Source of the DNA: Nageia nagi
Taxonomy: Eukaryota > Plantae > Pinophyta
DNA length: 64,000 nucleotides
NCBI GenBank assembly: GCA_050084985.1
Contig: JBITNC010000001.1
Coordinates: 49,042,001-49,106,000, forward strand
Reading direction: 5' to 3'
The position numbers and the translations under genes were made by a program. Shown here piece by piece: positions 15,481-64,000 of this stretch (positions are counted from its first letter, which is position 1; each line of letters opens with the position of its first letter). The notes below the pieces were generated by a model, which was given only the letters and a program-made list of their open reading frames with translations, had not been told where the DNA came from and ran no database searches.

Positions 15481-16197
15481 TGTTAGTGTACATGAAGGAT
15501 TATTTTAGATATTTATAAATTGATATCTAAGTTATAAATTTGATCAAATATCAAATATGATATGTTGTAAATATCTCAATAGTTAGTTACAAATATTATA
15601 TGTGTTAGAGTTTGTTAGGAACTAGTTAAAAGATATTTTACAGAGGAAAACTATAAGTATCATATCTATTATAAGAGAAGGGATCAAATATAGTAGATAT
15701 TTCTCTTATTTTATCCTTATATCAGTGATAATAGAATATAATGTGCTTCTTGATCTCTTGAATTAGATCAAATTATTATTTTTCTTAGATCATTATGTTA
15801 TATGCTTGTTTGCACTTCATGGATTATGAGAGGTTATCAATAATTAATCCATATTTGCAAAGCACTTGTAAGTTATTATTACTTGGAGTGTCATGCATTA
15901 TTTGGTGGCTACAAATTCAAACCATTCGATCAACTTGGATTCTCCTATAATGAATGCTTATGATGGTCTAAATTTTTTCTTTTGCTTATTTGTAGACACT
16001 AACCTAGAATCTTAGATTTACTTTAGTTTTGCAAGTTTGCTTTCTACAACCTTTGCTTTTGCAATTCCCAATTTGATCTTGATAGGAACCAACATTCTTT
16101 AGAGATAGATTTCTAGCAATATAAATCACATCATCAAAATTATAACTATGAATTTGATACACAAGCATGTGTACAAATTACATAATCTTAGTCAACA
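15481..16197 (+). repeat. 3' LTR of element A (717 bp)
   Basis: Starts TGTTAG directly after purine-rich aagctgaaggg, ends CAACA, matches 1-479. Confidence 0.88.
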
Positions 16198-16494
16198 ATA
16201 ACCAACAAGGTCATAAAAGGAAACATCATTGACCATACCCATAAAAATTTCTACACACTTACCATTCTTTGACTATAACATGAAGCTCATTTCAATACAA
16301 TGATATTAAGATCATGTACAAAATAAAAAGAAATGGGAAAAAAGACAAGTTTTCACTTTCTCCATAAAAAATAATTCACAAATAATACAAGCACTAATTT
16401 AGAACTAAACTCAATTCATAGAAACAAAAATCCTTTTATGATGGAAAATATAAATCATAGTAGAAAAATAAATCAAGAAAGTTATTAAGCTTAA

Positions 16495-16970
16495 TTGTAT
16501 AGTGGAAAGAGGCATTTTTGTGTGAATCCATTGATCATTCTTCAATATCTATTATGGCATCAAATTGGTGGCCATGTGATATTCATAATAACCAAGTAGA
16601 TAAAAAATAACTTTATATAATTTATACTTTTCATTGTACTCTACCATCCTTCCCATCCACAAACCATTTTTGTCCCATACCTCCATTGCTTCTCCCACCA
16701 TAAAATCCCTCCTCAAATCTAGCTCAATTGGTTTGAGCTTCACTATTTTGGGATCCTATGCTTCCTACAAGATCTTATTTCATTTTAGTTTCAAAAGATA
16801 ATGTACTACATAATTAAGACATGCTTCAATACCTCATCTATAAATTATGCTTGATACCACACCATAATAACCATCTTTGATGCATAGAACTCCAATATCC
16901 TCTAATATTTTGGAATCCTATTATCTCTTATGGCAATGGGTTTGGAGCTTTTTCCCTCTCATCTACATCA
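16495..16970 (-). pseudogene. Tandem Agenet (plant Tudor-like) domain exon, copy A
   Basis: DFMVGEAMEVWDKNGLWMGRMVEYNEKYKLYKVIFY...HMATNLMP fits the Agenet pattern F.VG..VEV...GWW.G.V...Y.V.F...LRP. Confidence 0.75.
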
Positions 16971-17587
16971 GTTTGGAAATTTTCTCTATATATCTTCTTC
17001 TATATTAAACAAACATGCATATAGAGTTGCAAGGGTAGTTGTGAGGCATTATGGAGAAAGAGTGGTGGTTTTTTATGGGATTTTTCTTCTTGTGGGAGAT
17101 GGTTATTAACTTTTTTTTTTGGTTTGATACAAATTAAAAATCCCAATCCTCCATACCATATTGATATCATAAAAAGGATGGTGGTTTTTTTAAGTGAAAA
17201 TTATTACGAAAGTTTACATGGAATATGGTAGATGATAAGGAGTCACAAACTTAGAGCTAAATCTAGAAGCTTCTTTATCTTAGTTTTAGATAGGTAGATA
17301 GTTCTTAATGTATTTTAATAGTTTGTGACTCCTTATTATCCCCCATATTCTATGTAAACTACCTTAAGAATTTTCACTTGAAAACCATCATTCTTTGCAT
17401 GATATAAATATGGCGATGGAGGATTTGGATCTATAATTAGTGTCATACCAATAAAAATAGATAAGAGCCATCTTTTTCAAGAAATAAAACCTAATAAAAA
17501 TCCAACACTATCATGCACTATTATCCTTGTAACTATATATGCATGTTTTCCTTATTGAGAAAAGATACAAGGAGAATTTCCAATACA

Positions 17588-18067
17588 ATGGTTAAGGTGA
17601 GAGGGAAGAAGCTCCAAACCCATGGTCATAGAAGATAAAAGGATTTAAAAACATTAGATAAGATTGAATTGTTATTCATCAAACATGGCTATTATGGTGT
17701 GTGGTACCAAGCAATATTTATAGATGATATTTTGAAGGATGGATTCATTGTGTAGTAAATTGATGTTTTGGACCTAAAATGGAGTAGGGGCTTGCAAGAG
17801 GTGAGAGATCCCAGAATGGTGAGGCCTAAACCTCAAAATCTAGATTTGAGAAGGGATTTTATGGTGGGAGAAGAAGCAAAGATATGGAACAAATATGGTT
17901 GGTGTATTGGGAGGGTGCTAGAGTACGATGATGATAATAAAGTATATAATGTTATTTTTTATCTGTTTGGTTACTATGAATATCATATGGCTTCCAATTT
18001 GAGGCCATCATAGATATTTAAGAATTATTAATGGATTCACCCAACAATGGCCCTTACCATCATACAA
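17588..18067 (+). pseudogene. Tandem Agenet domain exon, copy B
   Basis: One frame from ATG 17588: KTLDKIELL..HGYYGVWYQAIFI...LQEVRDPRMVRPKP (Agenet 1), then DFMVGEE..WNKYGWCIGRV...YNVIF...NLRPS..W (Agenet 2). Point stops only; ends at CAA|GTAAG donor; TATA-like ctatatat at 17533. Confidence 0.8.
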
Positions 18068-18624
18068 GTAAGCTTTATAGGTTGCATAATTTATTTTTCT
18101 ACTATGATTTATATTTTCCATCATAAATGGATTTTTATTTCACTAAATTTTTGCTATTTGAATCGAGTTTGGTTGTATAGTGATGCTTACATTATTTGTG
18201 AACATATGGATAAATATGGAAAATTTTCTTCTTTATTCCCATTTATTTTTATTTTGTTGCATGATATCAAGCTTAAGGTGTTGAATTGAGCTTCATGTTA
18301 TAGTCAAGAAGTGGTAGATTCTTGGAATTTGCAATGGGTTTGGTTGATGATGTTTCTTTCACTCTTTTTTTGTATGTAAAAAAATATGGTTTCATGCTAT
18401 ACTCTACTTGATTTTTCAATTAACTATAATAATTTTATTCATTATATTCCTTCTCTCTTGGACATGTCAAAATATTTTTCACACATGTACTTGAAAAGAT
18501 AATATGCTAACTAGTAACATCCCTCTTTTATCCTCTAGCTATATGATTATGCTAACTGGAAACATCCCTCTTTCCTCCTATAACTTTTATGAGTTGCATT
18601 TCTTTGTGCTTGTTTACAACAAGT

Positions 18625-19375
18625 TAGATAAGAAACATTCCATGTGAAATTGGTAGGCCTAACAAATTGATTATTAAAGTACCTCTACCTTCAATATAAA
18701 GTGTTATAAATCCAATCCCTTTAGCATTGGGTAATGTTATTCATTGAAGATTTTATTTATAGGGAACAACTTATTGTATAACGATATATTATTTGATTTA
18801 GGAAAATTAAAAATCATGATCATTTAACCCTATATAATGTTTACCTAGAATCTTACAAGATATGTATCTTCTAAACAAGGCACTTATATCAATAATCATG
18901 GTAAGAATTAATATGTGATAAAATAAAAGGGTTATTTCTATGAGTATCAACCTTCCCATTTCCACTCTTTCTTTAAATTTTTGGATACACTATTGATGAA
19001 TTTGAATTTATTTAGAACTATTACAAATTTTATTGAAAAATTTAAAGAGAGAACCTCTTTGAATTTAGATATAAATAACCTGATGAGAAGCATACATCAA
19101 AGTATATGTAACTAGTTTTTTTTTGAGAAAGTATCTCTTGACTCTAATCAATTATTTTGTACAATTCAAAAATCCATAGTAAACCTCCAAAATTTGAAAT
19201 CTTTGTACTTATACTAAAATAATTTGAGACTACAATGAAACATGAAACCTCCAAAAATCAAAGAGATATAATTTTACATTCATTCATTTGTCAAGAGTTA
19301 TCACATAGTATTCCTCAACTTAAGGATCATGATTAGCTTCTTCTCTTTAACAAAAATGTTTTTAGTTGTGTTATT
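18625..19375 (+). pseudogene. Plant extracellular LRR (RLP/RLK-type) gene fragment in the Agenet intron, unit 1
   Basis: IPCEIGRPNKL, IPLALGN, LNLDINNLMRSIHQSICN, KSIVNLQNLKSLYL; homologous to 30845-31625. Confidence 0.65.
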
Positions 19376-20823
19376 GAACTGTTACATTTTTTTAAAAATA
19401 TGAATTGATTGTATAAGTTGATTGAATCAAGTAATGATAGTTGAATTATCAATATGATGAAATAAGACCATGATGTTTTAGCTTAGTTTTTAAAATGAGC
19501 TATAGAATTGTAAAAACAAAAGAAGCAATGATGCTCTAAAGGATACCTATACATTAATTTTTTTCATATTTTACATTTAAAGAAAGGTAAAATGAACATT
19601 AACATCCTTTTATAGATTATTTTGTAAGACCTATCATTAGTTTTAAAATATCATAATTTCATACTTTGAGTCCAATCTTTCCATTGAATTGCAAACTATT
19701 TCCATAGTTTTTTTATAAGTTATTTCTGTATCTATTTTGCATCAAGCTTCTTGCTTGATCTTGGTTTTTCCAAAGGGAATATATTTAGATTTTTATGATC
19801 CCAATTTTACTTTAGAAAAGAGTTTAAGGTTTTTGTAGTCATCAAATCTTCTTTAGCTTTGAATTGAATGTTTGGTACCTTTTTAGTTGTTAGCTATGAG
19901 AAAACCTCACAAGACTTTCAATGTTTTTTTTGCCACTCTAGGGACCTTAACAATATGCTTGTCATAACCTAATTTATAGAACTTCTCAAATACTAAATAT
20001 TTCATAAATTTTATTTCAAGGATCCTTCTATATATTCCATAATAACATTACTCTAAAAATCTAAGCATTAATATTGAAGACTATTAATCTCATCATTATG
20101 CTTACTTAGTAAATCATAGATTAAATTTTCATTGAAAATGACATTGAATTATTTTAAATCTATAAGAAAAAAGTATTTTATGAATCCTACCCTATTAAAG
20201 AGGACTTATCTAAAACTAAAATTTATAAATTTCTAATTTTTACTTAACTTTGTGAAATCCAAAGCCTTTGGCTAGCCCTTTTTGACTTTTCTAATTGCAA
20301 AATTCTATGATGTATTATATTGATCCATATGATATTCTCATTGAAAAAGTGTTCAAAACTATCAAAATGACTAACTTAACACTAAAGTATCTCAAATTTA
20401 AATCTAATAACTTAAATTACTATCTAACTTTGTATATCATTGTATAAAGGTTTCCAAAAAAATGATACCTAAAACTTTGGCCCTTACCTTAGGCAATTCT
20501 GGCATCTAAAAATCTATTTTTTTTACTAAAAATATGATCTATCTGATTGAATTTGAATTTGGAATCAAATCATACTACACTCCACTAAATTCCTAAATTG
20601 AACCAATTAATACTAAATCTGAACCAACTCAAATTACTAATCATGTTGATATGAAAAACTTGCCCCCAATTATCACTTTTTCTTTCTTCATATTTAGAAT
20701 TTCTATTACTACAATTGATATTAATTTCTACTTGGTTAATTTAATGAATTAAATTCATAACTCTAATAATAAAAAAAAAATAAAAAACCTTAGGCTAAAA
20801 ATAAGTAGTTCAAATAATGCGCA

Positions 20824-21266
20824 TTAGATTCTTTTATTTGAGCTTTTCAGAATAAGTTCATTAGAATGTGCATTTATTTTTGAACTCACACTAATGTGAT
20901 TCTCAAAATTACCAAAAGAGACCTTGTTGGGAATTTTAATTTGTATTATCCTAGGTTTCCTATCTATCACATCAACTTTTGAGCTCACACCAACATGATT
21001 CTCATAACTATCAGAAGAGACCATGCTAGGAATTTTAATTTTTATTATCCTATGTGGCTCTTCAACTTTGGTTGAGCTCACTTCACTTATAGACACATGA
21101 TGAGCTTAAAATTTTGAAATCTAAAACTCATCATTACCTTTCTTTGAATTATTTACTTTTTAAGTTCTTTGTATGTTGTATTTTTGCATTATCCAACAAC
21201 AACATATATTCTTCTTTGTGAGACTAGAGTTGAACCATCATTATTCAGTATTTCATCCACTAAATC
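20824..21266 (-). pseudogene. Putative exon 2 of the Agenet gene, copy C
   Basis: Acceptor ttttcttgtag|GAT at 21266 (phase 0, matching the phase-0 donor of exon 1); DLVDEILNND...; ~33-aa repeats RIIKIKIP / RIIQIKIP. Confidence 0.55.
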
Positions 21267-22704
21267 CTACAAGAAAAATCCCCAATTTTCACAAGAAAGG
21301 TATATTAATGATATGAATCCTCATAAGTGGACTTCACATATTAATATTTGGTAATAAACAATATTACATCAGGTAATCAGACCAACACATAAATGAGATT
21401 TATATGGATTTAAAAATAAGATTGTACTAAAAAAATGTTAATAAGTTTTAAATAAACCATATTAATGCTCATTAAACATTTAGTTAAATTTGAGTGGAAA
21501 TCAATAATTAAATTATTTTCAATCATCATTTCATAGTTTAATTCATTTTCCTTATTAGAAATAGAATATATGAATACATTTTTGTCAAACATATTTCAAT
21601 GTTGATTAATCACATGTATAAAATAGTTTTTGATCATACCAAATACATCCAATTTTTATCATTGCTATATTATTAGCTAAACTCACTGCAAGTTATTTAG
21701 TGTGTACTCTAAATATTTTAAAAATAAATGCATCTGACTAATAGTGAGAAAGAATTTATTTTCCATATTTATTTATTTATACCTAGTAAGACCCCCATTG
21801 ATACTATAGAAAGCATCACTCAAAATTAATCATGGTGTTATAAGAATATTTTAATGATGACTTTGGGTAAGTATAAAACAACTAGTGATTATGATATCTT
21901 CTATTGAAGTTAAGTATGAGGAAATAATCAATAGTTTATGTAACACTTTAAAGAAAAAGTGGAAATGGGAAGGATGATACTCATAGAAAACAACCCTTTT
22001 ATTTTTTTAGATATTAATTCTTGTCATGAGAATTGCTAAAATTTTCTTGTTTAAAAGATACATATCTTTTAAGATTCTAGGCATGCATTATATAAGGTTA
22101 AAAGAATAAGATTTTTCATCTTTCTAACTCAAATAGTATATTTTTATATAATAAGTTATTCACTATAAGTTATATTGAAGGTAGGGGCACTCTAATAATA
22201 AATTTTCTTAGGCCTGCCAATTTCACATGGAATGGTCCTTGCCCAATTAGCATAATTGAACAATTATAGGAAGAAAGAGGGATGTTACTATCCAACATGC
22301 TATCTTTCAAGTACATGTGTGACAAAGTAGGGTATAATATGCAAACATATTTTGTTTATATACAAAAAAAGAGTGAAGTCAACAACATATCCAAAAAAGG
22401 TCATAAAAAGAAACATCAACAACCAAACCCATGAAAAATTCTAGGAACCTACCAATCCCTAACTATAACATGAAGCTTAATTCAACACAATGATATTAAG
22501 ATCATACACAAAATAAAAAGAATTAAGAAAAAATGAAGATGAGTTTCCACCTTTCTCCATAAAAATCAATTCACAAATAATGTAAGCACTAATTTACAAC
22601 CAAATTCAATTCAATTAGAAAAAATTCAATTAAACAAAAATCCTTTTATGATGGAAAATATAAATCATAGTAGAAAAATAAATCAAGCAAGCTAGCAAGC
22701 TTAC

Positions 22705-23182
22705 TTGCATGGTGGCAAAGGGCATTATTGGTTGAATCCATTTACCATTCTTCAATATATGAGATGGCCTCAAATTGATGGCCATCTGATATTAATAATA
22801 AATAAGTAGATAAAAAACAACTTTATATACTTTATACTTATCATTATACTTTACCACCCTCCCCATCCACCAACCATATTTTTCCCATGGCTCTATTTAT
22901 TATCCCACCATAAAATCCATCCTAAAATCTAGCTCATGAGGTTTAGGCCTCACTATTTTGGGATCTCACACTTCGTATAAGACCCTATTCCATTTTGGGT
23001 CCAAAAGATCAATGTATTGCATAGTGAATCCATCCTTCAATACCTCATCTATAAATTATGCTTGGTACCACACACCATAATAGCGACCTATGATGCATGG
23101 AAATTTAATATCCTCTAATGTTTTGAAAGCCTATTATCTCATATGGCAATGGGTGTGGAGCTTCTTACATCTCACCTACATT
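22705..23182 (-). pseudogene. Tandem Agenet domain exon, copy C (exon 1 of the only complete two-exon copy in the window)
   Basis: Reverse complement reads YYGVWYQA...DPKIVRPKPHELDFRMDFMVG...WEKYGWWMGRVV...NLRPSHILKNGKW, then CAA|GTAAG donor. Confidence 0.78.
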
Positions 23183-23804
23183 GGATTGGAAAGGATCTCT
23201 ATATATCTTCTTATCTATTAGGCAAACATACATATATAGTTGCAAGGATGGTGGTGGTGCATTACAAAGAAAGTGTAGTGGGTTTTTATGGGGTTTTGCT
23301 TCTTATAGGAGATGGTTATTAGCTAATTTTTTTAGGATGACACAAATTAAAAATACCAATCCTCCAAATCATATTCATATTATGAAAATGATAGTGGTAT
23401 TTTCAAGTGAAAATTCTTGAGGAAGTTTACGTGGAATATGGTAGATGATAAGGATTCACAAACTTAGAGTTAAATCCAAAAGCTTCTTTATCTCAATTTT
23501 AGAGGAGGTAGATAGTTGTTAATGTACTGTAATAGTTTGTGACTCCTTATTATCCACCATATTTTGTGTAAACTACCTCAAGTTTTTTCACTTGAAAAAA
23601 CCATCATTTTTTGCATGATATCAATATGGGTTGGAGGATTGGGATCTGTAATTTGTGTCATCCCAACAAAAATAGCTAAGAGCCATCTTTTGCAAGAAAT
23701 AAAACCTAATAAAAATCCAACATTGGAATACACCACCATCCTTGCAACTATATATGCATGATTGACTTGTAGAGAAAATATATGAAGAGAATTTCTAATC
23801 CAAA

Positions 23805-24271
23805 GGATAGAGTTGAGGGGGAAGAAGCTCCAAACCCATGGTAATAGGAGATAAAAGGCTTTCAAAACATTAAAGGAGATTGAAGTGTTGTGCATAAAAC
23901 ATGTCTATTATGGTGTGTGGTACCAACCAATATTTATAGATGATGTGTTGAAGGATGGAATCATTGAGTAGTACATTGATGTTTTGTACTTGAAATGGAA
24001 TAGGGGCCTACAAGAGGTGCAGGATCCCATAATAGTGAGGCATAAACCTCCCACGCTGTATTTGAGGATGGATTTTATGTTAAGAGAAGAATTAGAGACA
24101 TGGAACAAATATGGTTGGTGTATGGGGAGGGAGGTAGACTATGATGATGATAATAAAGTATATAAAGTTATTTTTGATATGATTAGTTATTATGAAATAT
24201 CACATATGCCATCATAGATATTGAAGAATGATCAATGGATTCACCCAAAAATACCCCTTTCCACCATACAA
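23805..24271 (+). pseudogene. Tandem Agenet domain exon, copy D
   Basis: LQEVQDPIIVRHKPP..DFMLREELETWNKYGWCMGREV..YKVIF; CAA|GTAAG donor at 24272. Confidence 0.78.
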
Positions 24272-24469
24272 GTAAGATTTATAGGTTGCTTGATTTATTT
24301 TTCTACTATGATTTATATTTGCCATCATAAATGGATTTTTATTTCATTGAATTTTTGCTAATTGAATTGATTTAAGCTATAAAGTGGTGCTTGCGTTATT
24401 TGTGAATTGGTTTTTATAGATAAATATGGAAAATTTTCTTCTTCTTTCTCATTTCTTTTTATTTTCTTG

Positions 24470-25205
24470 TGATCCAAATTGGATCATGTTAGGTTGTCTT
24501 TTCAAAAGTAGTACTCAGTCTAGAGGTACCTATGATTGGAGATAGATCGAAAATCAAAATTTGGAGTTGATCAGCATTCAATTTTAGGCTACTAGTGGTA
24601 TGTAAAAATCTAAATCTAGGCTACCACTAGCATACAATTTGATGAGTCAATAGTGGGAGTCGAAGGGATGTTGATGTGTTGGGTAGAGGAACTCTTTTAG
24701 CTTCCATAACTAATGTCAAGAAGGCATTTATAAGGTGATTCAAGGCTTATTAAAGAGCATGCCACCCTCCCTTATTTCTTCAATGAGATTTTTGAGAGTT
24801 TGTAGATTTTGGGATTGTAGGATTTGAAGGAAGGCCAAGAGTCATTCGAGAGTTCCATGGTTCTAAGATTATATTTTTCTTCTTACTATAGGAGATTGCA
24901 TTAATTATAGAAGATTATATTTCTATTATGTTGATGGTATTTCTCTATGCATGTAATATTATAATGTCCATAGATAATTAGAAGAAAAGGCTCCAATTCC
25001 ATGGTAGATTATCTCACATTGGGTAAAGTAGGGTAAATCATTATGTTGATCTTGTTGTGTGTTTGAGATTGATAGTTTGTGATTAAAATTGAGTAAATTT
25101 CAAATTTATATAAAATTTGTATGATTTCATAATGGTTAACTATTTTCTTACAAATCTATAAGTGGGGATGGAAGTATGCTATAAGAATCTGATGATTACG
25201 GATCA
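24470..25205 (+). repeat. 5' LTR of CRM-like element (736 bp)
   Basis: tgatccaaattgg...ttacggatca; matches 29915-30462. Confidence 0.9.
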
Positions 25206-25342
25206 TGTGGTATCATAGCTTATGCTATCAAAACTTGGGGCTAGAATTTTGGGAATTCCATGTAGCCATTGACATGAAATTTGATGTTTAGGAGGAGATA
25301 TAAAAGATCAAAATTGATTCCATAGGATCTTAATATTAGTTG

Positions 25343-28300
25343 ATGGGTAAGAGCAAAAGAAATGGATAATGTGAAGAAATAGTCACCTATATGTACCATG
25401 ATAAGGAGGTTTTTGGAAATGGAGAGTCATTTGGATAGGTTAGCTGAGTTTTTGGTTACTAGAGTAAATGCAAATGTCAATCAAAGATATCATGATGTAG
25501 TTGGGAGACTTGATTCATCATCTTTATCAAATAGAGTTCCTTTTAAGGTAAAGGACAAAGTGGACATTACTACTTTTGGAGGAGACATTGATGAGGAAAA
25601 TATGAATAATTGGTTGAAACAACTAGAGGTTTATTTCCATATTCATGGTGTTGTAAATGATGTTGATAAAATCTTTTTTGCTAGATTAAATATGAGTGGA
25701 CATGATTTAGTTTTATGGGAAAGCCATGTAGAAACTCTTAATCATGAACACTTATTTGAAATATCTTCTTCGAATGAATTTAAGAAGTTCTTAAGAGATC
25801 AATTCTATCCACTAGGATATCATAATAAAAAATTGATGAAATGGTAATTCTTTAGAGAACAAAGAGGATAAAATGTTCAAGAATACACTACAAAATTTAG
25901 GAAATAAGATACTTTGCTTGGGGTTTCACTAAAAGATCCTCAAAATTTAATGAAGTACATTGGAGGTTTACATAGTCATTTGCAAAAGACTATCATGTTG
26001 TTTAATCCTAATTATCTTGATCAAGTGTGTGTGCAAGCACAATACTTAGAGGACGATGGTAAAGGAAGGAGACAATATGATGAATCCAAAAAGGATTCTA
26101 ATTCAAGGGGAGGAAAAGAGAAAGGTAAATCTCAAGATAAAGGAAAAGGTAAGCAAGAAAATTAAACCACTAATATTTCAAAGAAAGAAGATGATAGTAC
26201 ACATTGTATTCATTATGATGAATATGGTCATATTGATGATAAATGTTGAAAATTACATCCAAAATTATGTCCATATAAGCATAAGAATAAAAAGAAAACT
26301 AATGCTATGGTTTTTTGATATGATGATATTGAGGGAAGTTTAGATGTTGATGAGAGAATAAATTATTCATCCATTAAAAAGGTTGAAGAAAATCAAGAAA
26401 TTGAAGAACAAAGGATTAAATTATTCCACCTCAAAATCCAAATTAAGAAAACCAAAGTAGATTTCATTATTGACCTGGGTTCTTAAGCAAATTTGATTTC
26501 AGAAAATATGGTAAGTAATTTGGGATTGGAAACTTTCAACCATCCAAATCCATATCCTTTGGGTTGGGTGCATCATAGTGCTAGTTTGCAATTCACTAAA
26601 TAATGTAAGTTGAAATTTTCTATTTGTACAAAGTACATTGATGAAGTTGTGGTTGATGTTCCTTTATATATTTATGGTGTTATTCTTGGTAACCCTTACA
26701 TGTGAGATAGAGATGTCATTTATTATAGAAGATTGAATAAATTACAACTGGTGAAAGGTGAAAAGATGTTTCTAGCTAGTGCACATGAAAGTAGGAAAAA
26801 GCTACCTTTGGTCACTATTAGTAAGGTAAAATGCCTTGTAAATGCTTCTAAAATTTTTGTTCTAATCATGGTGAAAATAAGAACCTCAAGTGAGGTGAAT
26901 GTCATGCTATTAGCGATGTGCAATACTGATTTGACACTACTAATAACATGCAAAAGAAAGGAATAGATGCAAGATTTGGTTTAAAAGTTTACTACCTTAT
27001 TTGTAGAGCCATAGGGATTACCTCCTATGCAAGATATATAGAATGATACTTAATTGTTACCTAATGCTTTATTTCCCAACATAACTTTGTATAGGCAATC
27101 AATTTTGGAGCAAGGGGAGATAAGGAGGCAAATTCAAGAGTTAGTTGATCAAAGTGTGATCAAACCAAGTATATCTCCATGTGGACCATTTATTGTTTTG
27201 TATACTAAGAAAGATCAAACTTGGACAATGTGCATTGATTATAGAGCACTAAACAAAATCACCATAAAAAATTGCTATCCTTTGCCTCAAATAAATGATC
27301 TTTTGGATTAGTTTCAAGGGGCAATATTCTTCATAAAATTGGACTTGAGGAGTGAATATCACCAAGTTAGAATCAAGGAGGAGGATATTTTAGACATTAA
27401 TTTCAAGACAAGATAAGGTCTATTTGAGTGGCTTATTTTTCCATTTGGTTTGTGTAATGCACTAGTTACTTTCATGAGAGTAATGAATGATGTATTTCAT
27501 CCATTTATTGATTCTTTTGTTGTTGTATACTTGGATGATATTCTTGTTTATAGTTCTACTTGGGAAGAACATGTTGTACATATTAGATAAGTATTTCAAA
27601 CTTTGCATAAGGAGAAGTTGTTATTGAAACATTCAAAATGTGAGTTTGAAAAAGAGTCTTTGGTGTATTTTGGCCATGTTATTGGTCATGGAAAACTTAA
27701 GATAGATCCTAGTAAAGTAAGTGCTATAGTAGATTGGCCAAGACCATATAATGTAACTAAAGTAAGGGGTTTCTTAGAATATGTCTTTGAGAAAGTTTAT
27801 TGTTGATTTTTCTCATAGTTCTTCACATTTACTTGATGTAATCAAAAAGAGGCAAGTTTTCCAATGGAGGAAACAACAACAAAAATCTTTTGATACTTTG
27901 AAGAAAAAGATTATTAGTGCACTTGTGCTAGCACTTCCAAATTTATAGAAACCACTTGAAGTGGAGATAGATGCAAGTGACTATGCCATGGGATCCATTT
28001 TGATGCAAGAAGGTAAACCAATTTGCTATCATTATGAAAAGTTTAGTGGGGTTATTTTGAATTATCCTACTTATGATAAGGAAATGTATGCATTGGTCTA
28101 AGCTATTAAAAAGTGGAAACATTACTTAATGGGGAAGAAATAATAATTCATACTGATCATAAACCCTTAAAATATTTACAAACTCAATCAAAATTGCAAC
28201 AAACTAGACACTATATGTGGATGCTTTTTTTGCAACAATTTCATATAGTGATCAAGTATAAGAAATGAACATAGAATAAAGTTGCTAACATGCTTTCTAG

Positions 28301-29885
28301 GCCACCTGTAACTACATATTCCATGCAATCAATGAGATGTAATGCTATTTTTGGGCTTCTAATGACATGCAAATAGGGTACAGTAAGTTCCCTCTTAGTG
28401 CTAAATTTTTTTCCTTTTTTGTCTAAGTCATTTTCAGAAGCATATGTGTAGGATCTAGAGTTCAAAGAAATATATGAGTAGTTGTTTTCATCTAGATCCA
28501 AGTATGAGGGTTTGGATGAATTTCATTTGCAAATTGGACTTCTTTATCATTTTAATGCATTATGTATCTCTATAGGTGAAAGGATTGGACTGATTAGAGA
28601 AGCACATACTTCAAATATTGTAGGATATTTTAGGGTTGAAAAGATATTGTACAATTTTCAAAGGTATGTATATTGGCAAAAGATGCAAGATCAAGTTGCC
28701 AAGTACATAAGGAGGTATTCTTTGTGTTGCACTAGAAAGCCAAGTAATATGAAATTGAGTTTGTATCAACCACTTCCAGTGCCTTCACATCCATGGGAGT
28801 GTATCTCAATGGATTTTGTGGGAGGATTGCCTATGACTAAGAAGGGTCATGACTATTTATTTTTCATTTTGGATGGATTTAGAAATATGTGTGTTTTGAT
28901 TCCATGTAAAAAGACTATAACATGACAAGATGCTATAAATTTATTCTTTTCTCATGTTTGGGTTCATTTTGGATTGTCTAATTCCATTATTTCAAATATA
29001 TATAGTAGATTTTTGGGCAAGTTTTGGACATATTTATGGGGAAAGATGGACACAAGGTTGAAAAGGAGTATTGCCTTTTATCCTCAAATGGATGGAAAAA
29101 TTGAAGTGGTGTATAGGACAATAGTTCATCTCTTGAGAGGTTATTGTGGCAAACATCCTAAGTCTTGGGATGAACATATTGAATATATCCAACATGCATA
29201 CACCAGGGTAGTTCATTCTTTCATTAATAAGAGTCCTTTTGAGACTTGTTTTGGTTATTTACCACCTTCAGCTTTTGATTATGTATTTGGAAAGCAAAGG
29301 ATGTACAAAATTCACTTGAGAAAGAGGAAAAACAAGCTAAAAAATTTGTTGAAAAGATTAGGCAAATTCATTTTAAATTCCAAGAGAAACTTGAGACAAG
29401 CCAAGCCAAGTACAAGATGAGACATGAAAAACATAGAGTTGATTGTAAGTTTCATGTGGGAGACCTTTTTTGGTAGCATCTTAGTAAGGAGAGGTTGCAA
29501 GAACCAACCAAGAAGTTGAAACCTATAAATTATGGACCATTTGAGATTATGGAGCAAGTAAGTGAGAATGCTTTTAGATTGAATCTACCATAATATATGA
29601 ACATCTATTTAGTTGTGAATGTTGAGCATTTGAAATTGTATAAACCATTTATATTGATTGAATATGAAGCAAGTTTAGATTAAATTTTACCATCTATTGA
29701 TGAATTAGATCCTAAAACTATGGATGAACTCAAGGAGGACACCATATTGTAAAAGATGGTTCCTATTACAAGAAGAGGTGAAATAGAACCATGGTTGGTT
29801 ATATTGAAAGGATGAAAGCCTACTAAAGCTAAGTGGATGAACATGTATATATTTGGGGAGTTGTATCCTCATATATGCATTTGTG
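25343..29885 (+). pseudogene. gag-pol: gag-pol of CRM-like element (gag, CCHC, PR, RT, RH, INT, chromo-like tail)
   Basis: VPFKVKDKVDITTFGGD..NWLKQLEVYF; Zn knuckle ~26200; protease IIDLGS ~26465; [19 protein letters not shown]; YLDD ~27528; PWECISMDFVGGLP. Confidence 0.93.
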
Positions 29886-29914
29886 GGACCAAATGCTTCC
29901 TTATTGGGGAGGTG

Positions 29915-30462
29915 TTATCTAAATTGGATCATGTTAGGTTATATTTTTAGGAGTAGTACATAGTCTAGAGGTACCTATGCTTGGAGATAGATCAAAGATT
30001 GAAATCTAGAGTTGATCGATATTCAATTTTAGGCCATTAGTCATGTGCATAAATATGAGATTAGGCTACCACTAGTGTACAATTTTAAGGTACATGATGT
30101 GTTGGGCAGAGAAACTCTTTCAACTTCCATAACTAATGTCAAGAAGGCATTTCTAAGGCTTATTAAAGAGATTGTATTTCCATTGTGTTGATGCTATTTC
30201 TTTATGCATGTAATATTGTAATTTCCATAGAAAATGAGAAGAGAAGGATCAAATTACATGTTGGATTAGCCCACATTAGATGAACTAGGGTAAATCATTA
30301 TGCTGATCTTATTATGTGTTTAAGATTGTTAGTTTGTGATTCACATTGAGCAAGTTTCAAATTTATAAGCAATTTGTATGATCTTATAATGGTTAACTAT
30401 TTTTGTTTGAATCTATAAGTGAGGATTCGAGTATGCTATAAGCATCCAATGATTACAAATCA
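29915..30462 (+). repeat. 3' LTR of CRM-like element (548 bp, internal deletions)
   Basis: Matches the 5' LTR but lacks about 150 bp (~24760-24910) plus smaller blocks. Confidence 0.9.
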
Positions 30463-30844
30463 TGTTGCATGATATCAAGCTTAGCATGCTGAATTGAGCT
30501 TCAAGTTATTGTCAAGGAGTGGTAGGTGCTTGGAATTTATCATGGGTTTGGTTAATGATGTTTCTTTTTATGACCTTGTTGACAATGCCAATGACTTCAC
30601 TCTTTTTTTGTATGTAAGAAAAATATTTTTCATGCTATACTCTACTCGGTTTATCAATATTTAATTCATTAGATTCCTTATCTCTTAGACATGTAAAAAG
30701 ATTTATCACACATGTACTTGAAAATATAATATGTTAACTTGTAACATCCCTCTTTATTCCTTTAACTATTTGATTATGCTAACTGGAAACATCTGTCTTT
30801 CCTCTTGTAACTTTTTTGAGTCACATTTCTTTGTACTTGTTTAC

Positions 30845-31810
30845 AACAAGTTAGATAAGAAGCATTCCATGTGAAATTGGTAGGCCTAATAAATTGATTA
30901 TTAGAGTACTCTACCTTCAATATAAAATTCTATAAAGCCAAATCCCTTTAGCATTGGGTAATTTTCTTCATTGGAGATACTATTTATAGGGAACAACTTA
31001 TTGTATAACAATATATTATTTAAGTTAGGAAAATTTAAAAAATCATAATCAATTAACCCTATATGATGCCTATGTAGAATCTTACAAGATATATTATCTT
31101 TTGAACAAGGCAATTATATCAATCATCATGGAAAGAATTAATAAGTGAAAAAATAAAAGGGTTATTTTCTATGAGTATCAACCTTCCCATTTCCACCCTT
31201 TCTTTAAATTGTTGGATACACTATTGATGAATTTGAATTTCTTTGGAACCATTATGAAGGGTATTGAAAACCTTAAAAGAGAGAACATATTTGAATTTAG
31301 ATACAAATAACTTGATGAGAAGCATACCTCAAAGTATATGTAACTTTAAAAAATTTGAGAAACTCTTTCTTGAATGTAATAAATTATTTTGTACAACTCC
31401 AAAATCCATAGTAAACCTCCAAAATTTGAAATCCTTGTATTTATAATAAAATAATTTGAGACTACAATGAAATATGAAACCTCCAAATCTCAAAGAGATA
31501 TAGTTTTGCATTCATTCATTTTTCAATTGTTATCACATAGCATTCCTCAACTTAAGGATCATGATTAGCTTCTTCTCTTTAACAATAATTTATTTAGTTA
31601 TGTTCTTGAATTGTTACAATTTTCTCTTATTATAGTATATTTGGATATAATAGATAAAGTCCTTGGAGTAAGCATTATTGAATCTATTGGTAAATTCATT
31701 ATCTTGTTGCATATAGTTGAATTAAGTTCTAGGAATCTATAGTGTGGAAAGAGAGATATGAGTTCTTAAATTGTTTGTGGATTTTGTTGATATTGGATTT
31801 TTTCCATGGT
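30845..31810 (+). pseudogene. LRR receptor-like protein fragment in the Agenet intron, unit 2 (longest copy)
   Basis: SIPCEIGRPNKL, QIPLALGN, YLNLDTNNLMRSIPQSICNFKKFEKLFLECNKLFCTTPKSIVNLQNLKSLYL, LDIIDKVLGVSIIESIGK: plant LxxLxLxxNxLxGxIP consensus. Confidence 0.75.
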
Positions 31811-34002
31811 CCATATCAATTGATGTTCCTCATGGTCATCATGGAGCTCTTCTTGAGTAGCTATATGTGAAATATAATATACTTACATTGAATCCCTTGG
31901 TTATATCCACCCATATTCAATATATATAAATAAATTGACAAAAATTTCATCTAATCCTATTATTTATTAATGATAAAAATTTAATATCTTATACTAATAA
32001 CTTTATATTTTTAAATTTCATCTGTTTCCTTCAACTCTTTTTTAAATGTATCCAAACATTAAGAATTGAATTTTATAAATGCTTTATTGATGATTATCAT
32101 TTAAGGGGGTATATGGTTCTTATTTCTTCAAATAAATTTCCCAAGAACTATATGTACCTATGTTATTTTAAGGACAAATTTTGATTACTTCCTCATACTC
32201 AACTTTTGAAAAAGATATTATAATCATTGGTTGTTTTATACTTGCCCAAAGTCATCATTAAAATATTCTTATAACACCATTATTGATTTTGATTTATGAT
32301 TCATATAATATCAATGGGCTCTTTCAAGGTATAAATAAAAAATATAGAAAAAAATTCATCTTCATTGTTAGTCGAATGCACTTATTTTTAAAATATTTAG
32401 AGCAAACATGAAAGAACTTGTTGAGAGCTTAGATAATAATATAAAAATTATAAAAATTGAATGTATATTATGGAAAACATATGAATATTATCAATGATAC
32501 ATGTTGGTCAAAAACTTCATTAAACATGTTAAATATAAAATGATTATGTAATTTAATATTCCCTCTAGTTTATAGCTATCTTGGATCTATAAAATGTGTA
32601 TTGATTGTCCAAATTGATTGAAGGAAGGAATGATAGTTTAAGTATCAATATGATGAAATATGAACATAATGTTTTAGCCTAGTTTTTAAAGTGAGATATA
32701 GAATTGTAAAAAAAAAAAGAAGCGATGATGCTCTAAAAAATACCTATACATTTATTTTTTCTCATTTTACAATTAAAAAAAAGTAAAATCAACATTAACT
32801 TCCTTTTAATATATTTGTTTGTAATACCTATCATTAGTTTTTAAATATCATAATTTCATACTTTGATTCCAATATTTCCCATTAATTACAAACTATTTCC
32901 ATAGTTTTGTTAGGAGTTATTTCAATACCTATTTTACATCCAACCTTCTTGCTTGATCTTGGTTGTTCCAAAGGAACTACATTTAGAGTTTGATGATCCC
33001 AATTTTACTTTAGAAAATGGTTCAAGGTTTATGTAGTCATAAAATATTCTTCATATTTTAATTGAATGGTTGGTACCTTTTCAGATGTTAGCTATGAGAA
33101 AAACCTCACAAGACTTTTGAATTTTTTTTTTGCCACTCTAGGGACCTTAAAAATAGGCTTTCCATAACCTATTTTTTAAGAATGTCTCAAATATTAAATA
33201 TTTCATGAATTTTATTTGAAGTATCCTTCTATATATTTTAGAATAACTTTATTCTAAAACTCTAAGCATTAATATTGAAGCCTATTAATCTCATCATTAT
33301 GCTTACTAGATCATAGACTAAATTTTCATTGAAAATGACATTAAATTATTATAACTCTACAATAACAAAGGATTTTCTAAATCTTACCCCTATTCAATAG
33401 GACTTATCTAAAGCTAAAATGTCTAAATTTTTGATTTTTACTTAACTTTATGAAAATAAAAGCCTTTGGCTAGCCCTTTTTTACTTTTCTAATTGCAAAA
33501 TTCTATGATGTATTGTATGGTGCCATATGAGATTATCATCAAAATAGTACTCAAAACTATAAAAATGACTAACTTAACATTGAAATATCTCAAATCTAAA
33601 TCTAATACCTTAAATTACTATCTAACTTTGTATATAATTCTACAAAGGTTTCTATAATTTACTAAAACTTTTTCCCTTACCTTAGGTAATTTTGATTTCT
33701 CTAAAATCTAAATTTTTTTATTGAAAATATAATCTACTAGAAAGATTAGAAGATGACCTCAAATCATACTACACTCCACTAAATTGCTAAATTGAACTAG
33801 TTAATACTAAATCTAAAATAACTCAAATTACTAATCATACTAATATGAAAAACTTGCTGCCAATTATCACTTTTTTCTTTCTTAGTATTTAGAATTTCTA
33901 TTACTACAATTGATATTAATTTCTACTTGGCTAATTTTATGAATTAAATTCATAAATCTAATACTATAAACAAATAAAAAACCTTAGGCTAAAAATAAGT
34001 AG

Positions 34003-34463
34003 TTAAAATAATAAGCAGCAACTTCTTTTATTTGAGCTTTTTAGAATAAGTTCACTAGAATGTGCATTTGTTTTTGAATTGACACCAATGTGATTCTCAA
34101 AACTACCAGAAGAGACCTTGTTGGGAATTTTACTTTGTATTATCCTAGGTTTCCTTTCCTATGTAGCACATCAACTTCTAAACTCACACCAACACGATTC
34201 TCATAACTACTTGAAGAGACCATGCTAGGAATTTTAATTCTTATTATCCTATGTGGATCTTCAACTTTGGATGAGCTCACTTCATTTACAAACATATGAT
34301 GAGCTTTAACTTTTGAAATTTGAAACTCATCATTACCTCTTCTATGAATTATTTTCTTTTTAAGTTCTTTGGATTTTGGATTTTTGTACTATGCAACAAC
34401 ATATTTTCTCCTTTTTGAGACTAGAGTTGAATCATCATTATTCAATATTTCATACACCAAATC
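34003..34463 (-). pseudogene. Putative exon 2 of the Agenet gene, copy E (third unit)
   Basis: Acceptor ttttcttgtag|GAT. Reads DLVYEILNNDDSTLVSKRRKYVVA*YKNPKSKELKKKII...DPHRIIRIKIPSMVS for ~100 codons with one stop. Confidence 0.55.
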
Positions 34464-35311
34464 CTACAAGAAAAATCCCAATTTTTCATTAGAAAGGCAT
34501 ATTAAAATATATGAAGCCTCAAAAGTGGACTTCACATATTAATATTTGTTAATAAACAACATTACATTAGGTAATCAAACCAACACATCAATTATATTTA
34601 TATGAATTTAAAAATAAGATTAGCCTCAAAATTAAAAATTCATTAAATTTGAGTGGAAATGAATAATCAAATTATTTGAAATCATCATTTCATAGTCTAA
34701 TTCATTTTCCTTATTAAAAATCGAGATATATGAATACATTTTTATCAAAAAATATTTAAATGTTGATAAATCACATGTATAAAAATAATTTCTGATCATA
34801 CCAATTACATTCAATTTTTACCATTGTTGTATTATTATCTAAACTCTCTATAAGTTATTTAGTATAAAGTCTAAATATTTTAAAAATAAATGCATCTAAC
34901 TATGAGTGAGGAAGAATTTATTTTTCCATATTTTTTATTTATACCTAGCAAGACCCACAACAATATTATATGAAGCATCACTCAAAATTAATCATTATTT
35001 TATAAGAATATTTTAATGATGACTTTGGGTAAGTATAAAACAACTAGTGATTATGATATCTTATGTTGAAGTTGAGTATGAGACAATAATCAATAGTTTA
35101 TCTAGCACTTCAAAGAAAGAGTGGAAATTGGAAGGTTTATACCCATAGAAAACAACCCTTTTATTTTATTAGATATTAATTCTTTTCATAATGATTGTTA
35201 TAATTTTATTGTTTAAAAGATACATATCCTGTAAGATTCTAGGTAGACATTATATAAGGTTGAAAAACCAAGATTTTTAATTTTCCTAACTCATATAGTA
35301 TATTTTTATAC

Positions 35312-36102
35312 TATTAACACCTAAAAGTGGTCTCCTTAGGATGGTCCTACTTAAGTGCAACTTTACATACATGTTTAATCACACATTATCATATTTTAAT
35401 AGTATTTTATCATATTATCATATATTTCTTAGGTTTTGTTCTTATTTTTATCTTAGGTACACCAAAATGACTTCCACCTTCATATAAGGGGTCAAATGGT
35501 GATATCATACCTGATATAAATGTAAGTATGTATAACTTGGGGAAAGCATGTCAAGATTATATCTCGATAGTTGGTACCCTACTCTTGGGTATTTCTAAAT
35601 GCTGCCTTTTGAGATTGGAATCTTGTTATCATTTGAGAAAATATTTGTCATCCCTATTCACGATCATATACTTGGTTTGACTTGTCATCATATCTATATC
35701 ATTGACTCTTATTTGCAAACCTCATTCTTTCGAAATGCTAGCACCTGCACCAAGTTCTTTGAGCCTAGCACCCATGTTGGGATCCTTTTAGTAGTTGGTT
35801 ATGGAGTTCACACAACAAGGTCACCTCTCCTTGAAAAGCCCATCTGACACATTTTTATACTTGATAGAAGTAAGGAAACATAGGTATTTATCTCACACTT
35901 GATTCCATCTCTTTAGTGTGTGCATTCATTTTGTATCTTGACATTAACACAATTTGTAATTATGTTATTTCTTTGTTATATAGTCTTTTTACATTATTCA
36001 TGTATGTTTATTTGAGTAATTAGCTTAGATAATACATAAATATTTATGTGTATTTAGTTCATTTAGGCTAAAACCTTAGGTGTACCAAAATACATATCAA
36101 CA
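35312..36102 (+). repeat. Probable 5' LTR of the Ogre/Retand-type element
   Basis: Starts tattaac (TG>TA) exactly at the host breakpoint and ends atcaaca. Followed by taacacccact, a G>A-decayed match to the tRNA-Lys PBS TGGCGCCCACC. No second LTR to confirm. Confidence 0.6.
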
Positions 36103-44800: not shown

Positions 44801-45050
44801 AGGATTCAACATCCAAATGCATCACCATGCACATTATTCATATATGAGAAAGAACATCAACATTAAGTTCTTAAAATATTTTCATAATACTATAATCAAT
44901 AATAGCAAATATCTTCATCTAACCCATAGTAACTATAACTTACTTGCGCTTTTCTCTACTAAAACATGCCACTTTTGCATTGCAAGCATTCCTAGCAAAA
45001 AATACTACCACTATAGTATTGAACAAAAAAAAAAAAAACTATAAGGAATA

Positions 45051-45163
45051 TCATAATCTTAAAAAAATGATAGGAGTTACATTAGGTGTTTTATAAGCAT
45101 CATAATATTAAAAACATGATAGGAGTTACATTAGGTGTTTTATAAGCATCATAATCTTAAAAA
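45051..45163. repeat. 49-bp tandem duplication (~2.3 copies)
   Basis: tcataatcttaaaaaaatgataggagttacattaggtgttttataagca repeated almost perfectly. Confidence 0.9.
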
Positions 45164-46298
45164 TATATTAATGATTAATATTATGCAAAATAAACCAAAC
45201 ACCAATAATAACAATAGTCCTAAGTGATTATAGACTTGAGAGGCATCAACCAAAGGACATCAATATAAAGATATATATCAATTCAAGGATCTACTCAACT
45301 AAATCATCAAATGATCATGACCAAGAACTACGATTAAAGTAAATCTTATTTTATCTAAATGATATCATAGATTTTATAATCATATAAGATATAACATATT
45401 CAAACCATTTAATAGTTGACTAAGGATCTCAATTCCATAATTTAGAAAGTTGATTTAATTTCTTATTTAAGTCTAAGGTATCAACCTAACCTTACTCAAT
45501 CCTACTCTTGCCTCTCATAGATACAATTAAATAAAAAAAGGGTATATAAATTGAAATTTGTCTTATATGTGGTTTAAATAGCATAAACAAATTAAATACA
45601 TACACAAAATTTAAATTACACAACTCCTCTTTACTTAATGAACATTAGTTAGAAATCTTGATAAAGATAAGTTTAGATCTTTGAATATTAAGCTCAAACT
45701 TTGCAAGAACCTTAAAAAACCCCAAATGCATCTAAGTGGAAAGGGGTACCTCCAAACCTAGGTCCTTTGAGGCACCTAGGTGAGCATTAACTAAGTCTCC
45801 TCACTTAAAATGGCATGTGAGCCCCCAAGCCCTCAATTCATTAAGAACAAATGAATTATGTATGCCTATTATGTAAACACTTTAATCTATATGCTCTTTA
45901 GAAAAATTCAATGGTGGATTCAAACCATGGAAGGAACCTTTACATGTTTGGATTACTAAAAACAAGATTTAAGACTTTAAACTTTGAAAACCTTAAAATG
46001 TTTTAAATGCAAAGATCCTTGAATCAATTAGATTCAAGTATACCCATAAGATATAATGAGTGTTCACAATGCATGTTTAAGCTATTATGGATTCAAATAA
46101 CAATTCTAATGGTATAAATGCAAGATATCATGATTTTACACTAAACATCATACTACATGCACACAATTTGGTGGAAGATACAAGAGGTAGGTCTTCCCAA
46201 GCTTCTCCATGGTTGTACCTTCAAACCCTACAAAAAGTTTGAATACATGAAATACATACAATAATACAAAAATTCAACCATAGAAATTACATAGAGAT

Positions 46299-47769: not shown

Positions 47770-47786
47770 GTAGATAAGTTAATTTT

Positions 47787-58243: not shown

Positions 58244-58249
58244 GAAGAC

Positions 58250-63900: not shown

Positions 63901-64000
63901 ATAGACACCTAAATATGAATTATTATTTATTAAATAATTAATTTTAGATCCTCAATGATGTATTATATAAAAAGAGGTTAAATAATACCCAAAGCCATGT

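What the first reader, a model, noticed from the sequence alone, without database searches (positions are those of the whole stretch)
16198..35311. Tandem array of head-to-head palindromic Agenet (histone-reader-like) gene units embedded in retrotransposon-dense DNA
Seen: a ~6.2-kb unit, present at least three times, in which a two-exon minus-strand gene faces away from an inverted copy of its promoter, exon 1 and most of intron 1. Only 68-69 nt are unpaired and arms reach ~1.8 kb. Known: Agenet/Tudor tandems read methylated histones (Arabidopsis AGDP1/ADCP1 binds H3K9me2 and aids TE silencing), and inverted gene duplications are a source of hairpin siRNA and new MIRNA loci. Inference: either an amplified divergent-promoter gene pair or a hairpin-RNA locus able to silence Agenet (and LRR) genes; a selfish or TE-carried anti-silencing cassette is a more speculative possibility. 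All copies now carry stop codons.
Basis: partly seen in the sequence, partly recalled or inferred. Interest (0 to 1): 0.78.

Follow-up and report, generated by a model that had tools for sequence, protein, structure and literature searches.

The report
Fossil palindromic Agenet pseudogene array
A plant chromatin-reader gene was copied back-to-back into a 2-kb palindrome and the whole unit was then duplicated in tandem; every copy is broken and has since mutated like non-coding DNA, so this is likely an ordinary, long-silenced relic in a likely conifer genome and not a working gene pair or silencing device.

Summary
The palindrome is real: two head-to-head centres with 68- and 69-nt spacers, arms up to 1.8 kb, unit 6.2 kb. 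The third copy is only exon 2 plus distal intron. Each arm carries a broken tandem-Agenet exon (Pfam E about 1e-5); the closest single-cassette relative is a Taxus protein whose match breaks exactly at the window's splice sites. The inversion is older than the tandem duplication (tree 100/100; arms 78-80% alike, units 83-86%). All four exon-1 copies carry 3-10 stops, pN/pS is 0.88 (CI 0.58-1.44), CG and CHG sites were erased separately in each copy, and LTR retrotransposons cut all three left genes' units. A read-through RNA would still fold, but substitutions do not favour pairing (58 vs 57). The LRR piece lies only in right arms, unpaired. No transposon ends or enzymes were found. The AGDP1 cage tyrosine is missing. 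Verdict: a decayed inverted-plus-tandem duplication, likely silenced early, possibly by its own inverted repeat. Expression could not be tested (no genome held).

The parts
16200..17251 (-). Left arm L1: upstream region, broken tandem-Agenet exon 1 (ends 16495; donor changed from GT to TT; 2-nt and 1-nt deletions; 10 stops), first 300 nt of intron 1; cut on the left by an LTR-like repeat
17252..17319 (.). Unpaired spacer 1, 68 nt, no structure of its own (264 of 300 shuffles fold as well or better)
17320..18997 (+). Right arm R1: inverted copy of upstream region (TATATA about 170 nt before the first W-Y motif), exon 1 (17588/17642-18067, no frameshift, 5 stops, GT donor at 18068) and part of intron 1
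18998..19391 (+). Truncated LRR receptor-like coding fragment inside the right-arm intron; ends at a deletion of about 970 nt relative to unit 2
   Evidence: (LRR_8 E 0.026)
19395..20823 (-). Downstream flank of left gene L2, duplicated with the unit; no family match
20824..21266 (-). Exon 2 of L2: begins at a TTGTAG acceptor in phase with exon 1, first 10 residues match Taxus residues 151-160; holds a 79-nt internal duplication; stops and a frameshift
21267..22704 (-). Intron 1 of L2 (1438 nt)
22705..23464 (-). Left arm L2: exon 1 (no frameshift in the domain, 7 stops; Agenet E 8.5e-6) and upstream region
23465..23533 (.). Unpaired spacer 2, 69 nt, 85.5% identical to spacer 1
23534..24469 (+). 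Right arm R2, first piece: upstream region, exon 1 (to 24271; 1-nt insertion and 13-nt deletion; 3 stops), start of intron
24470..30462 (+). Decayed Ty3/gypsy LTR retrotransposon inserted in the R2 intron: LTRs 24470-25205 and 29914-30462 (83% identical), 5-nt target duplication with one mismatch, capsid, protease, RT, RNase H, integrase and SH3 matches
30463..32466 (+). Right arm R2, second piece: intron 1 copy, including a 957-nt insert (31229-32185) flanked by a 5-nt direct repeat and holding LRR receptor-kinase-like repeats (31258-31473)
   Evidence: LRR_8 E 1.3e-5; MIK2 E 3.9e-28
32591..35310 (-). Third left gene L3: downstream flank, exon 2 (starts 34463) and distal intron 1; cut at about 35311 by unrelated sequence; its exon 1 and palindrome are not in the window

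Best explanation
This is an array of broken two-exon tandem-Agenet genes, made by an old inverted duplication and a later tandem duplication, that was likely methylated and silenced early and has mutated neutrally since. Step 1 (order shown, mechanism inferred): the gene was copied back on itself from a point about 320 nt upstream of the domain, leaving a 68-nt loop, as expected from fold-back or template-switch repair; the new right copy ended inside intron 1 and never had exon 2. Step 2 (inferred): a 957-nt LRR receptor-kinase fragment entered the right intron, or was deleted from the left one, at a 5-nt direct repeat. Step 3 (shown): the 6.2-kb unit was duplicated head to tail, giving at least three left genes; unequal crossing over is the likely route. 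Step 4 (decay shown, cause inferred): CG and CHG sites still present at the duplications were deaminated separately in each copy, stops accumulated at the neutral rate, and LTR retrotransposons inserted into the introns. The inverted repeat is the likely trigger of silencing, since a transcript from the terminator-less right copy would run into the antisense of the next left gene, as at PAI1-PAI4. If the host is a gymnosperm, the inversion is roughly 55-60 and the tandem duplication 30-45 million years old.
For: Tree ((L1,L2),(R1,R2)) 100/100; informative sites 53 vs 13 vs 6, identities L-R 77.6-79.8%, L1-L2 83.2%, R1-R2 85.5%, exon no better conserved than intron within L1/L2 or R1/R2. pN/pS 0.87 on terminal branches, 0.96 on the internal branch, 0.88 overall (CI 0.58-1.44); omega 0.3 rejected at p 0.02 on the internal branch alone. 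Exon 2 omega 1.10 on 144 codons. New stops per terminal branch 2, 4, 2, 0 against 1.77 expected. CG relics (TG in one copy, CA in another) 15 vs 6 control, CHG relics 14 vs 2; CpG o/e 0.07. Substitutions compatible with a plus- or minus-strand hairpin 58 vs 57. Nested gypsy with target duplication. TE-associated duplicated pseudogenes are abundant in gymnosperm genomes (PMC13477047, passages); fold-back leaves a short spacer (PMC3907307, passages); a tail-to-tail gene repeat triggers methylation (PMC3203196, passages).
Against: One of six pairwise omegas is below 1 (L1/R2 0.43, CI 0.24-0.75). Indels are somewhat rarer in the domain (4 of 16, p 0.08), and both indel pairs (L1 -2/-1, R2 +1/-13) restore the frame. 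Sites shared by the two arms of one palindrome outnumber the control pattern 13 to 6 (p 0.08), plus 3 to 0 in an intron block, a hint of arm-to-arm conversion. A read-through RNA would still pair at 80-84% with runs of 21-41 nt. CG/CHG depletion covers the whole window, so it does not show that the palindrome caused the silencing. The spacer shows no fold-back stem today. The gypsy LTRs (K 0.196) look as old as or older than the tandem duplication (K 0.12-0.19), so the clock is rough. The host is not identified.
Confidence: 0.78

Rival explanations
1. The array is a living endogenous inverted-repeat (hairpin RNA) locus: a transcript across a centre, or from the terminator-less right copy into the antisense of the next left gene, is diced into siRNAs that silence an intact Agenet donor gene in trans.
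For: Predicted hairpin of -533 kcal/mol over 1171 nt; 80-84% paired, 2-5 runs of 21 nt or more per comparison; a TATATA box survives in all four arms; slight excess of within-palindrome shared sites; an 86%-identical inverted repeat is a methylated locus in Arabidopsis (PMC3203196, passage).
Against: No bias towards pairing-compatible changes on terminal branches (58 vs 57; internal 22 vs 12, p 0.12); within-palindrome identity (77.6, 79.8%) equals cross identity (78.2, 78.9%); no short stem is conserved beyond its surroundings; a 6-kb element was tolerated in arm R2; head-to-head genes transcribe away from the centre; each arm has moved 8-11% from its node, which erodes targeting of any donor; the nearest intact relatives found are 23-38% identical in protein.
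Confidence: 0.1
2. The unit was for a time a functional, amplified divergent gene pair or dosage array, and died only after the tandem duplication.
For: Agenet motifs are retained; CG and CHG sites were still present at the duplications, so the gene was probably alive shortly before; shared stops at CHG positions can arise in parallel; indel pairs restore the frame; head-to-head tandem duplicates with palindromic intergenic DNA exist as live genes in Arabidopsis IAN genes (PMC12845241, passages).
Against: The right copy lacks exon 2; the branch between inversion and tandem duplication has 4 synonymous and 17 non-synonymous changes (pN/pS 0.96, wide CI 0.31-3.91); an in-frame TAA just before the domain is shared by all four copies.
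Confidence: 0.07
3. The unit is a non-autonomous DNA transposon (Pack-MULE, foldback or Helitron type) that captured Agenet and LRR fragments, perhaps as an anti-silencing cargo.
For: Fragments of two unrelated genes lie in one repeated unit; long inverted arms resemble foldback termini; gene capture by TEs is very common in conifers (PMC13477047, passages); a 53-nt weak similarity links the centre to 20204-20256 in inverted orientation (0 of 300 shuffles reach it).
Against: Arms consist of the gene itself, not of terminal repeats; copies are tandem, not dispersed, within the window; no transposase or helicase match in the unit; the 53-nt similarity appears in 1 of 4 pairings and has E 16 and 4.1 with bias-aware profiles; the cargo evolved neutrally.
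Confidence: 0.05

Closest known systems
Taxus chinensis KI387_009435 (KAH9305031.1; P0017), single tandem-Agenet cassette protein
   Same: Best single-stretch hit (38% by phmmer; 34% over 148 aa, E 7e-18 pairwise); match ends at the window's donor (residue 150) and resumes at its acceptor (residue 151); same WW-M-G-R-V and N-L-R-P motifs and same D at the cage position.
   Different: Intact and rich in G/A/R/P (0.32 vs 0.18); tail after residue 160 not recognisably similar; its genomic arrangement was not seen.
Arabidopsis AGDP1/ADCP1 and AGDP3 tandem Agenet cassettes (PDB 6IE4-7, 5ZWX, 5ZWZ, 7YTA)
   Same: Best solved-structure matches (E 2e-6); same two-Agenet cassette with Pro-rich linker.
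   Different: One cassette, not three; cage Tyr122 absent, Trp127 is Cys in both right arms, Glu45 is Lys or Ile; pseudogenes.
PAI1-PAI4 inverted repeat and endogenous inverted repeats (IR71, MuKiller; proto-MIRNA model)
   Same: Inverted gene duplication in which one transcript could contain both arms; methylation follows (PMC3203196, PMC10827316, passages).
   Different: Core is head-to-head with a 68-nt spacer, tandemly repeated, 20-22% diverged; no transcript or siRNA shown.
Head-to-head tandem duplicates of Arabidopsis IAN (AIG1-like) genes
   Same: Head-to-head paralogues with reverse-complement intergenic DNA inside tandem arrays (PMC12845241, passages).
   Different: Those are whole annotated genes; here the second copy is partial and all copies are dead.
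Fold-back inverted duplications (human inv-dup-del)
   Same: Two inverted copies separated by a short single-copy spacer (PMC3907307, passages).
   Different: Spacer 68 nt against 766-70,466 nt, arm 1.8 kb against large chromosomal duplications, interstitial; junction microhomology cannot be read without the ancestral allele.

Membership tests
Agenet domain family (PF05641) | Pfam Agenet match | tested here: met
   R1 E 2.2e-5 (25.2 bits) and L2 E 8.5e-6 (26.6 bits), just under the curated cut-off of 27; R2 and the L1 fragment gave none (2 of 4). 50 proteins at E <= 0.001 in the representative library; the named ones looked up are Agenet/DUF724/ENT proteins.
Agenet domain family (PF05641) | Tandem cassette: G-x-W-Y strand, R-P linker, G-W-W second domain, closing L-R-P | tested here: met
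   Alignment with Taxus, Cryptomeria and Welwitschia proteins; PDB hits.
AGDP1/ADCP1-type H3K9me2 reader | Aromatic cage Tyr122/Trp127/Phe144 in the second Agenet | tested here: not met
   Residues from PMC6208443 mapped through the 5ZWX alignment: Tyr is D, E, N, N; Trp kept in L1, L2, Cys in R1, R2; Phe kept in all four.
AGDP1/ADCP1-type H3K9me2 reader | Three cassettes in one protein | tested here: not met
   One cassette per gene; no Agenet in exon 2.
AGDP1/ADCP1-type H3K9me2 reader | Binding to H3K9me2 peptide | not testable with these tools
   Needs a binding assay on an intact orthologue.
Duplicated (unprocessed) pseudogene | Intron retained, disabling mutations, omega near 1 | tested here: met
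Endogenous inverted repeat (hairpin siRNA locus) | Long inverted arms able to pair in one RNA | tested here: met
Endogenous inverted repeat (hairpin siRNA locus) | A transcript holding both arms and DCL-made siRNAs | not testable with these tools
Endogenous inverted repeat (hairpin siRNA locus) | Selection or conversion keeping arms paired | tested here: inconclusive
   No G:U bias (58 vs 57) and equal within/cross identity; weak excess of within-palindrome shared sites (13 vs 6, and 3 vs 0).
MIRNA gene | Known family match or one conserved short stem | tested here: not met
   0 Rfam matches at gathering score in the window; arm identity flat in 100-column bins.
Pack-MULE / Helitron / foldback transposon | Terminal inverted repeats or Helitron ends with target duplication around the unit | tested here: not met
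   No significant terminal repeats other than the gene arms; unit junctions inspected by eye show no target duplication.
Pack-MULE / Helitron / foldback transposon | Dispersed copies elsewhere in the genome | not testable with these tools
   No genome is held for this window; none elsewhere in the 64 kb.

The most novel reading that the evidence does not exclude
The array is a natural epigenetic knockout of a conifer chromatin-reader subfamily: the terminator-less right copy reads into the antisense of the next unit, and this tandem of palindromes, tens of millions of years old, still makes siRNAs that hold down an intact Agenet paralogue.
Probability: 0.08. Interest if true: 0.6.

Novelty: new member of a known kind. 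Interest (0 to 1): 0.2.

Why it matters
As it stands it is a clear fossil of how a gene dies in a giant methylated plant genome: inversion, tandem duplication, CG/CHG erasure, retrotransposon insertion, with the order of events readable from four arms. It also shows that a 2-kb palindrome with a 68-nt spacer can persist for a very long time with little arm-to-arm homogenisation. If siRNAs from it regulated a live chromatin reader it would be an unusually old hairpin locus and a feedback on the silencing machinery, but nothing found here points to that.

Tried and rejected
No whole genome is held, so dispersed copies and an intact donor could not be sought. The one search for sequencing runs (16198-24469) listed none (no RNA holder listed; no evidence either way), so no reads were laid. 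Word-index protein search with R1 found 0 of 3 candidates, with the Taxus protein only itself among 610 at E <= 1e-10 (lengths 114-364 only). A search with the gypsy integrase frame gave 14 hits without organism names and did not help place the host. The Atlas gave no usable hit for exon 2. A KRR1 hit in the downstream flank (E 0.083) was not supported by Pfam on 21 shorter frames: rejected. LRR-like text in the minus-strand flank seen by eye gave no LRR hit: rejected. A possible terminal inverted repeat linking the centre to 20204-20256 passed a shuffle test chosen after seeing it but failed profile searches: rejected. An apparent excess of plus-strand G:U pairs between arms vanished when changes were counted once per branch. 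The idea that CHG loss is special to the palindromes failed: several 2.1-kb tiles elsewhere are as low. The shared TAA before the domain was not taken as proof of death before the inversion, because a CAG codon can decay to TAA in parallel. No structure was predicted; sequence hits were sufficient. Nine literature searches listed no paper on a palindromic Agenet array or TE-borne Agenet genes; the library lacks most subscription journals, and no supplements were read.
Full report
Observation. Self-comparison of the window shows two large inverted repeats, 16217-18359 and 22500-24474, and direct repeats that define a unit of about 6.2 kb (centre to centre 6213 nt). The arm tips lie at 17251|17320 and 23464|23534, leaving spacers of 68 and 69 nt. 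The right arm of unit 2 is split by a Ty3/gypsy element (24470-30462; capsid, protease, RT, RNase H, integrase and SH3 matches; LTRs and 5-nt target duplication) and then continues to 32466, which matches left-arm position 21643, 1822 nt from the tip. A DNA profile of the arms finds exactly four arms and a protein profile four Agenet exons in the 64 kb. The 'third unit' is a third left gene of which only exon 2, the flank and the distal intron are present (32591-35310). The leftmost gene is cut at about 16199 by the end of a 470-nt direct repeat shared with 8-477 (86%), which I read as the LTR of a large retroelement (inference; a primer-site-like motif follows the first copy, recalled).

The gene. 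With X at stops, R1 and L2 match Pfam Agenet at E 2.2e-5 and 8.5e-6, just below the curated cut-off; R2 and the L1 fragment did not match. The best solved relatives are the ADCP1/AGDP1 and AGDP3 cassettes. Of 50 hits in the representative library, the best single-stretch hit is P0017 (38%), which is Taxus chinensis KI387_009435; of 10 hits looked up, three others are Taxus or Cryptomeria, one Welwitschia, two angiosperm and three unnamed. The Taxus match ends at residue 150, exactly at the window's GTAAG donor, and the best hit of its tail (residues 151-160, 7 of 10 identical, E 0.72 alone) starts exactly at the TTGTAG acceptor at 21266. That supports the two-exon model and a conifer-type host, together with CpG o/e 0.07 and CHG o/e 0.20; the host itself is not identified. 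Mapping the binding residues of RsAGDP1 (PMC6208443, passages; same cage in PMC6318295, passages) through the 5ZWX alignment and one search shows the cage tyrosine replaced by D, E, N, N in the four arms and by D in Taxus. H3K9me2 reading cannot be assumed even for the living ancestor.

Order of events. Left arms group with left and right with right (100/100; 53 informative sites against 13 and 6). K2P distances are 0.236-0.267 between left and right, 0.191 and 0.162 within, and 0.122-0.139 for the distal, AT-richer parts of the units. So the inversion came first and the tandem duplication second. [quoted passage not shown] The right arms carry a 957-nt insert flanked by a 5-nt direct repeat that is single in both left introns; its first part encodes LRR receptor-kinase-like repeats (LRR_8 E 1.3e-5; MIK2 E 3.9e-28). 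Insertion in the right arm and deletion from the left cannot be told apart. Unit 1 later lost about 970 nt there.

Selection. On 133 codons with resolvable nodes, synonymous/non-synonymous changes were 10/23, 2.5/26.5, 3/19 and 7/18 on the four terminal branches and 4/17 on the internal branch: pN/pS 0.87, 0.96 and 0.88 overall (CI 0.58-1.44), with omega 0.3 rejected. Exon 2 gives 1.10 on 144 codons. New stops per terminal branch (2, 4, 2, 0) match 1.77 expected. Against this: one of six pairwise values is low (L1/R2 0.43, CI 0.24-0.75) while its mirror L2/R1 is 1.46; indels are a little rarer in the domain (4 of 16, p 0.08) and both indel pairs restore the frame. Columns with TG in one copy and CA in another number 15 against 6 controls, and CHG relics 14 against 2, also within L1/L2 and R1/R2. 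CG and CHG sites therefore survived until the duplications and were erased separately, which suggests a gene alive until about the inversion and methylated afterwards. The depletion is window-wide, so the cause is not shown.

Hairpin. A read-through RNA would fold (z -15.5 to -20.0 for the central 300 nt; -533 kcal/mol over 1171 nt), with 80-84% of columns paired and a few runs of 21-41 nt. The genes face away from the centre, so their own transcripts do not cross it. The more natural route is the right copy, which has no exon 2 or 3' end and would read into the antisense of the next left gene, a tail-to-tail arrangement like PAI1-PAI4 (PMC3203196, passages) with a loop of about 2.9 kb. There is no sign that pairing was maintained: branch-specific transitions compatible with a plus- or minus-strand hairpin are 58 and 57, and within-palindrome identity equals cross identity. 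The one hint is 13 against 6 within-palindrome shared sites (p 0.08) and 3 against 0 in an intron block, which low-level DNA conversion would explain without function. The LRR fragment has no partner arm, so primary siRNAs against LRR genes are not expected. Rfam gave 0 matches. Perfect inverted repeats methylate and silence themselves in plants and mismatches relieve this (PMC9263138, abstract only), which fits early self-silencing but also leaves room for later leaky transcription.

Transposon. Thirty six-frame chunks (24 over the non-Agenet parts of the unit, 6 over the gypsy) and 21 shorter frames gave only the LRR and gypsy domains. No terminal repeats other than the gene arms passed a bias-aware test. 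Gene capture is common in conifers (PMC13477047, passages), so the LRR insert may well have arrived that way, but the unit as a whole shows no transposon anatomy. Dispersed copies could not be sought.

Comparison and verdict. It works like nothing today, most likely; it arose like a fold-back inverted duplication (PMC3907307, passages) followed by ordinary tandem duplication, with precedent for head-to-head duplicates in plant tandem arrays (PMC12845241, passages) and for endogenous inverted repeats as siRNA sources and MIRNA starting points (PMC10827316, passages). Agenet genes are known from gymnosperms (PMC4634149, passages). It is a member of the Agenet family and of the class of duplicated pseudogenes, not of the AGDP1 type, and not shown to be a hairpin-RNA locus. 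New member of a known kind; interest 0.2.

Noticed in passing
window 8-477 and 15726-16195: 470-nt direct repeat, 86% identical (K 0.157), bracketing about 16 kb with RT-like decayed frames (8151-9122 resembles 51432-52421); likely the LTR ends of a large retroelement inserted in the L1 intron, so the array probably continues left of the window.
   Followed up: partly
window 24470-25205: The 5' LTR of the nested gypsy holds about 160 nt and two short stretches absent from the 3' LTR.
   Followed up: no
window 35311-42000 and 50000-53600: Two decayed retroelement bodies with an extra RNase H (RVT_3 E 7e-8 at 40925-41161 and 1e-7 at 50507-50929); in the second it lies before the RT, in the first after RNase H. 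The clade names (Tat/Ogre-like) would be from recall.
   Followed up: no
window 5416-5944 and 63376-63902; 46295-47776 and 58246-60081: Further direct repeats of 84-92% identity, probably LTR pairs or solo LTRs of other elements.
   Followed up: no
window 20878-21055 and 34072-34254: 79-nt internal duplication in exon 2, older than the tandem duplication.
   Followed up: partly
window 17243-17295 against 20204-20256: 53-nt inverted similarity (75%) between the palindrome centre and the downstream flank; significant against shuffles in 1 of 4 pairings, not with profiles. Probably chance in AT-rich DNA.
   Followed up: yes
P0037 cluster (Cryptomeria SUGI_0835740-0835770): Consecutive locus tags in one 90% cluster suggest a tandem array of another Agenet (ENT-type) gene in Cryptomeria.
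   Followed up: no
window 60805-61003 and 45050-45163: Short tandem arrays with periods 74 and 49 nt.
   Followed up: no
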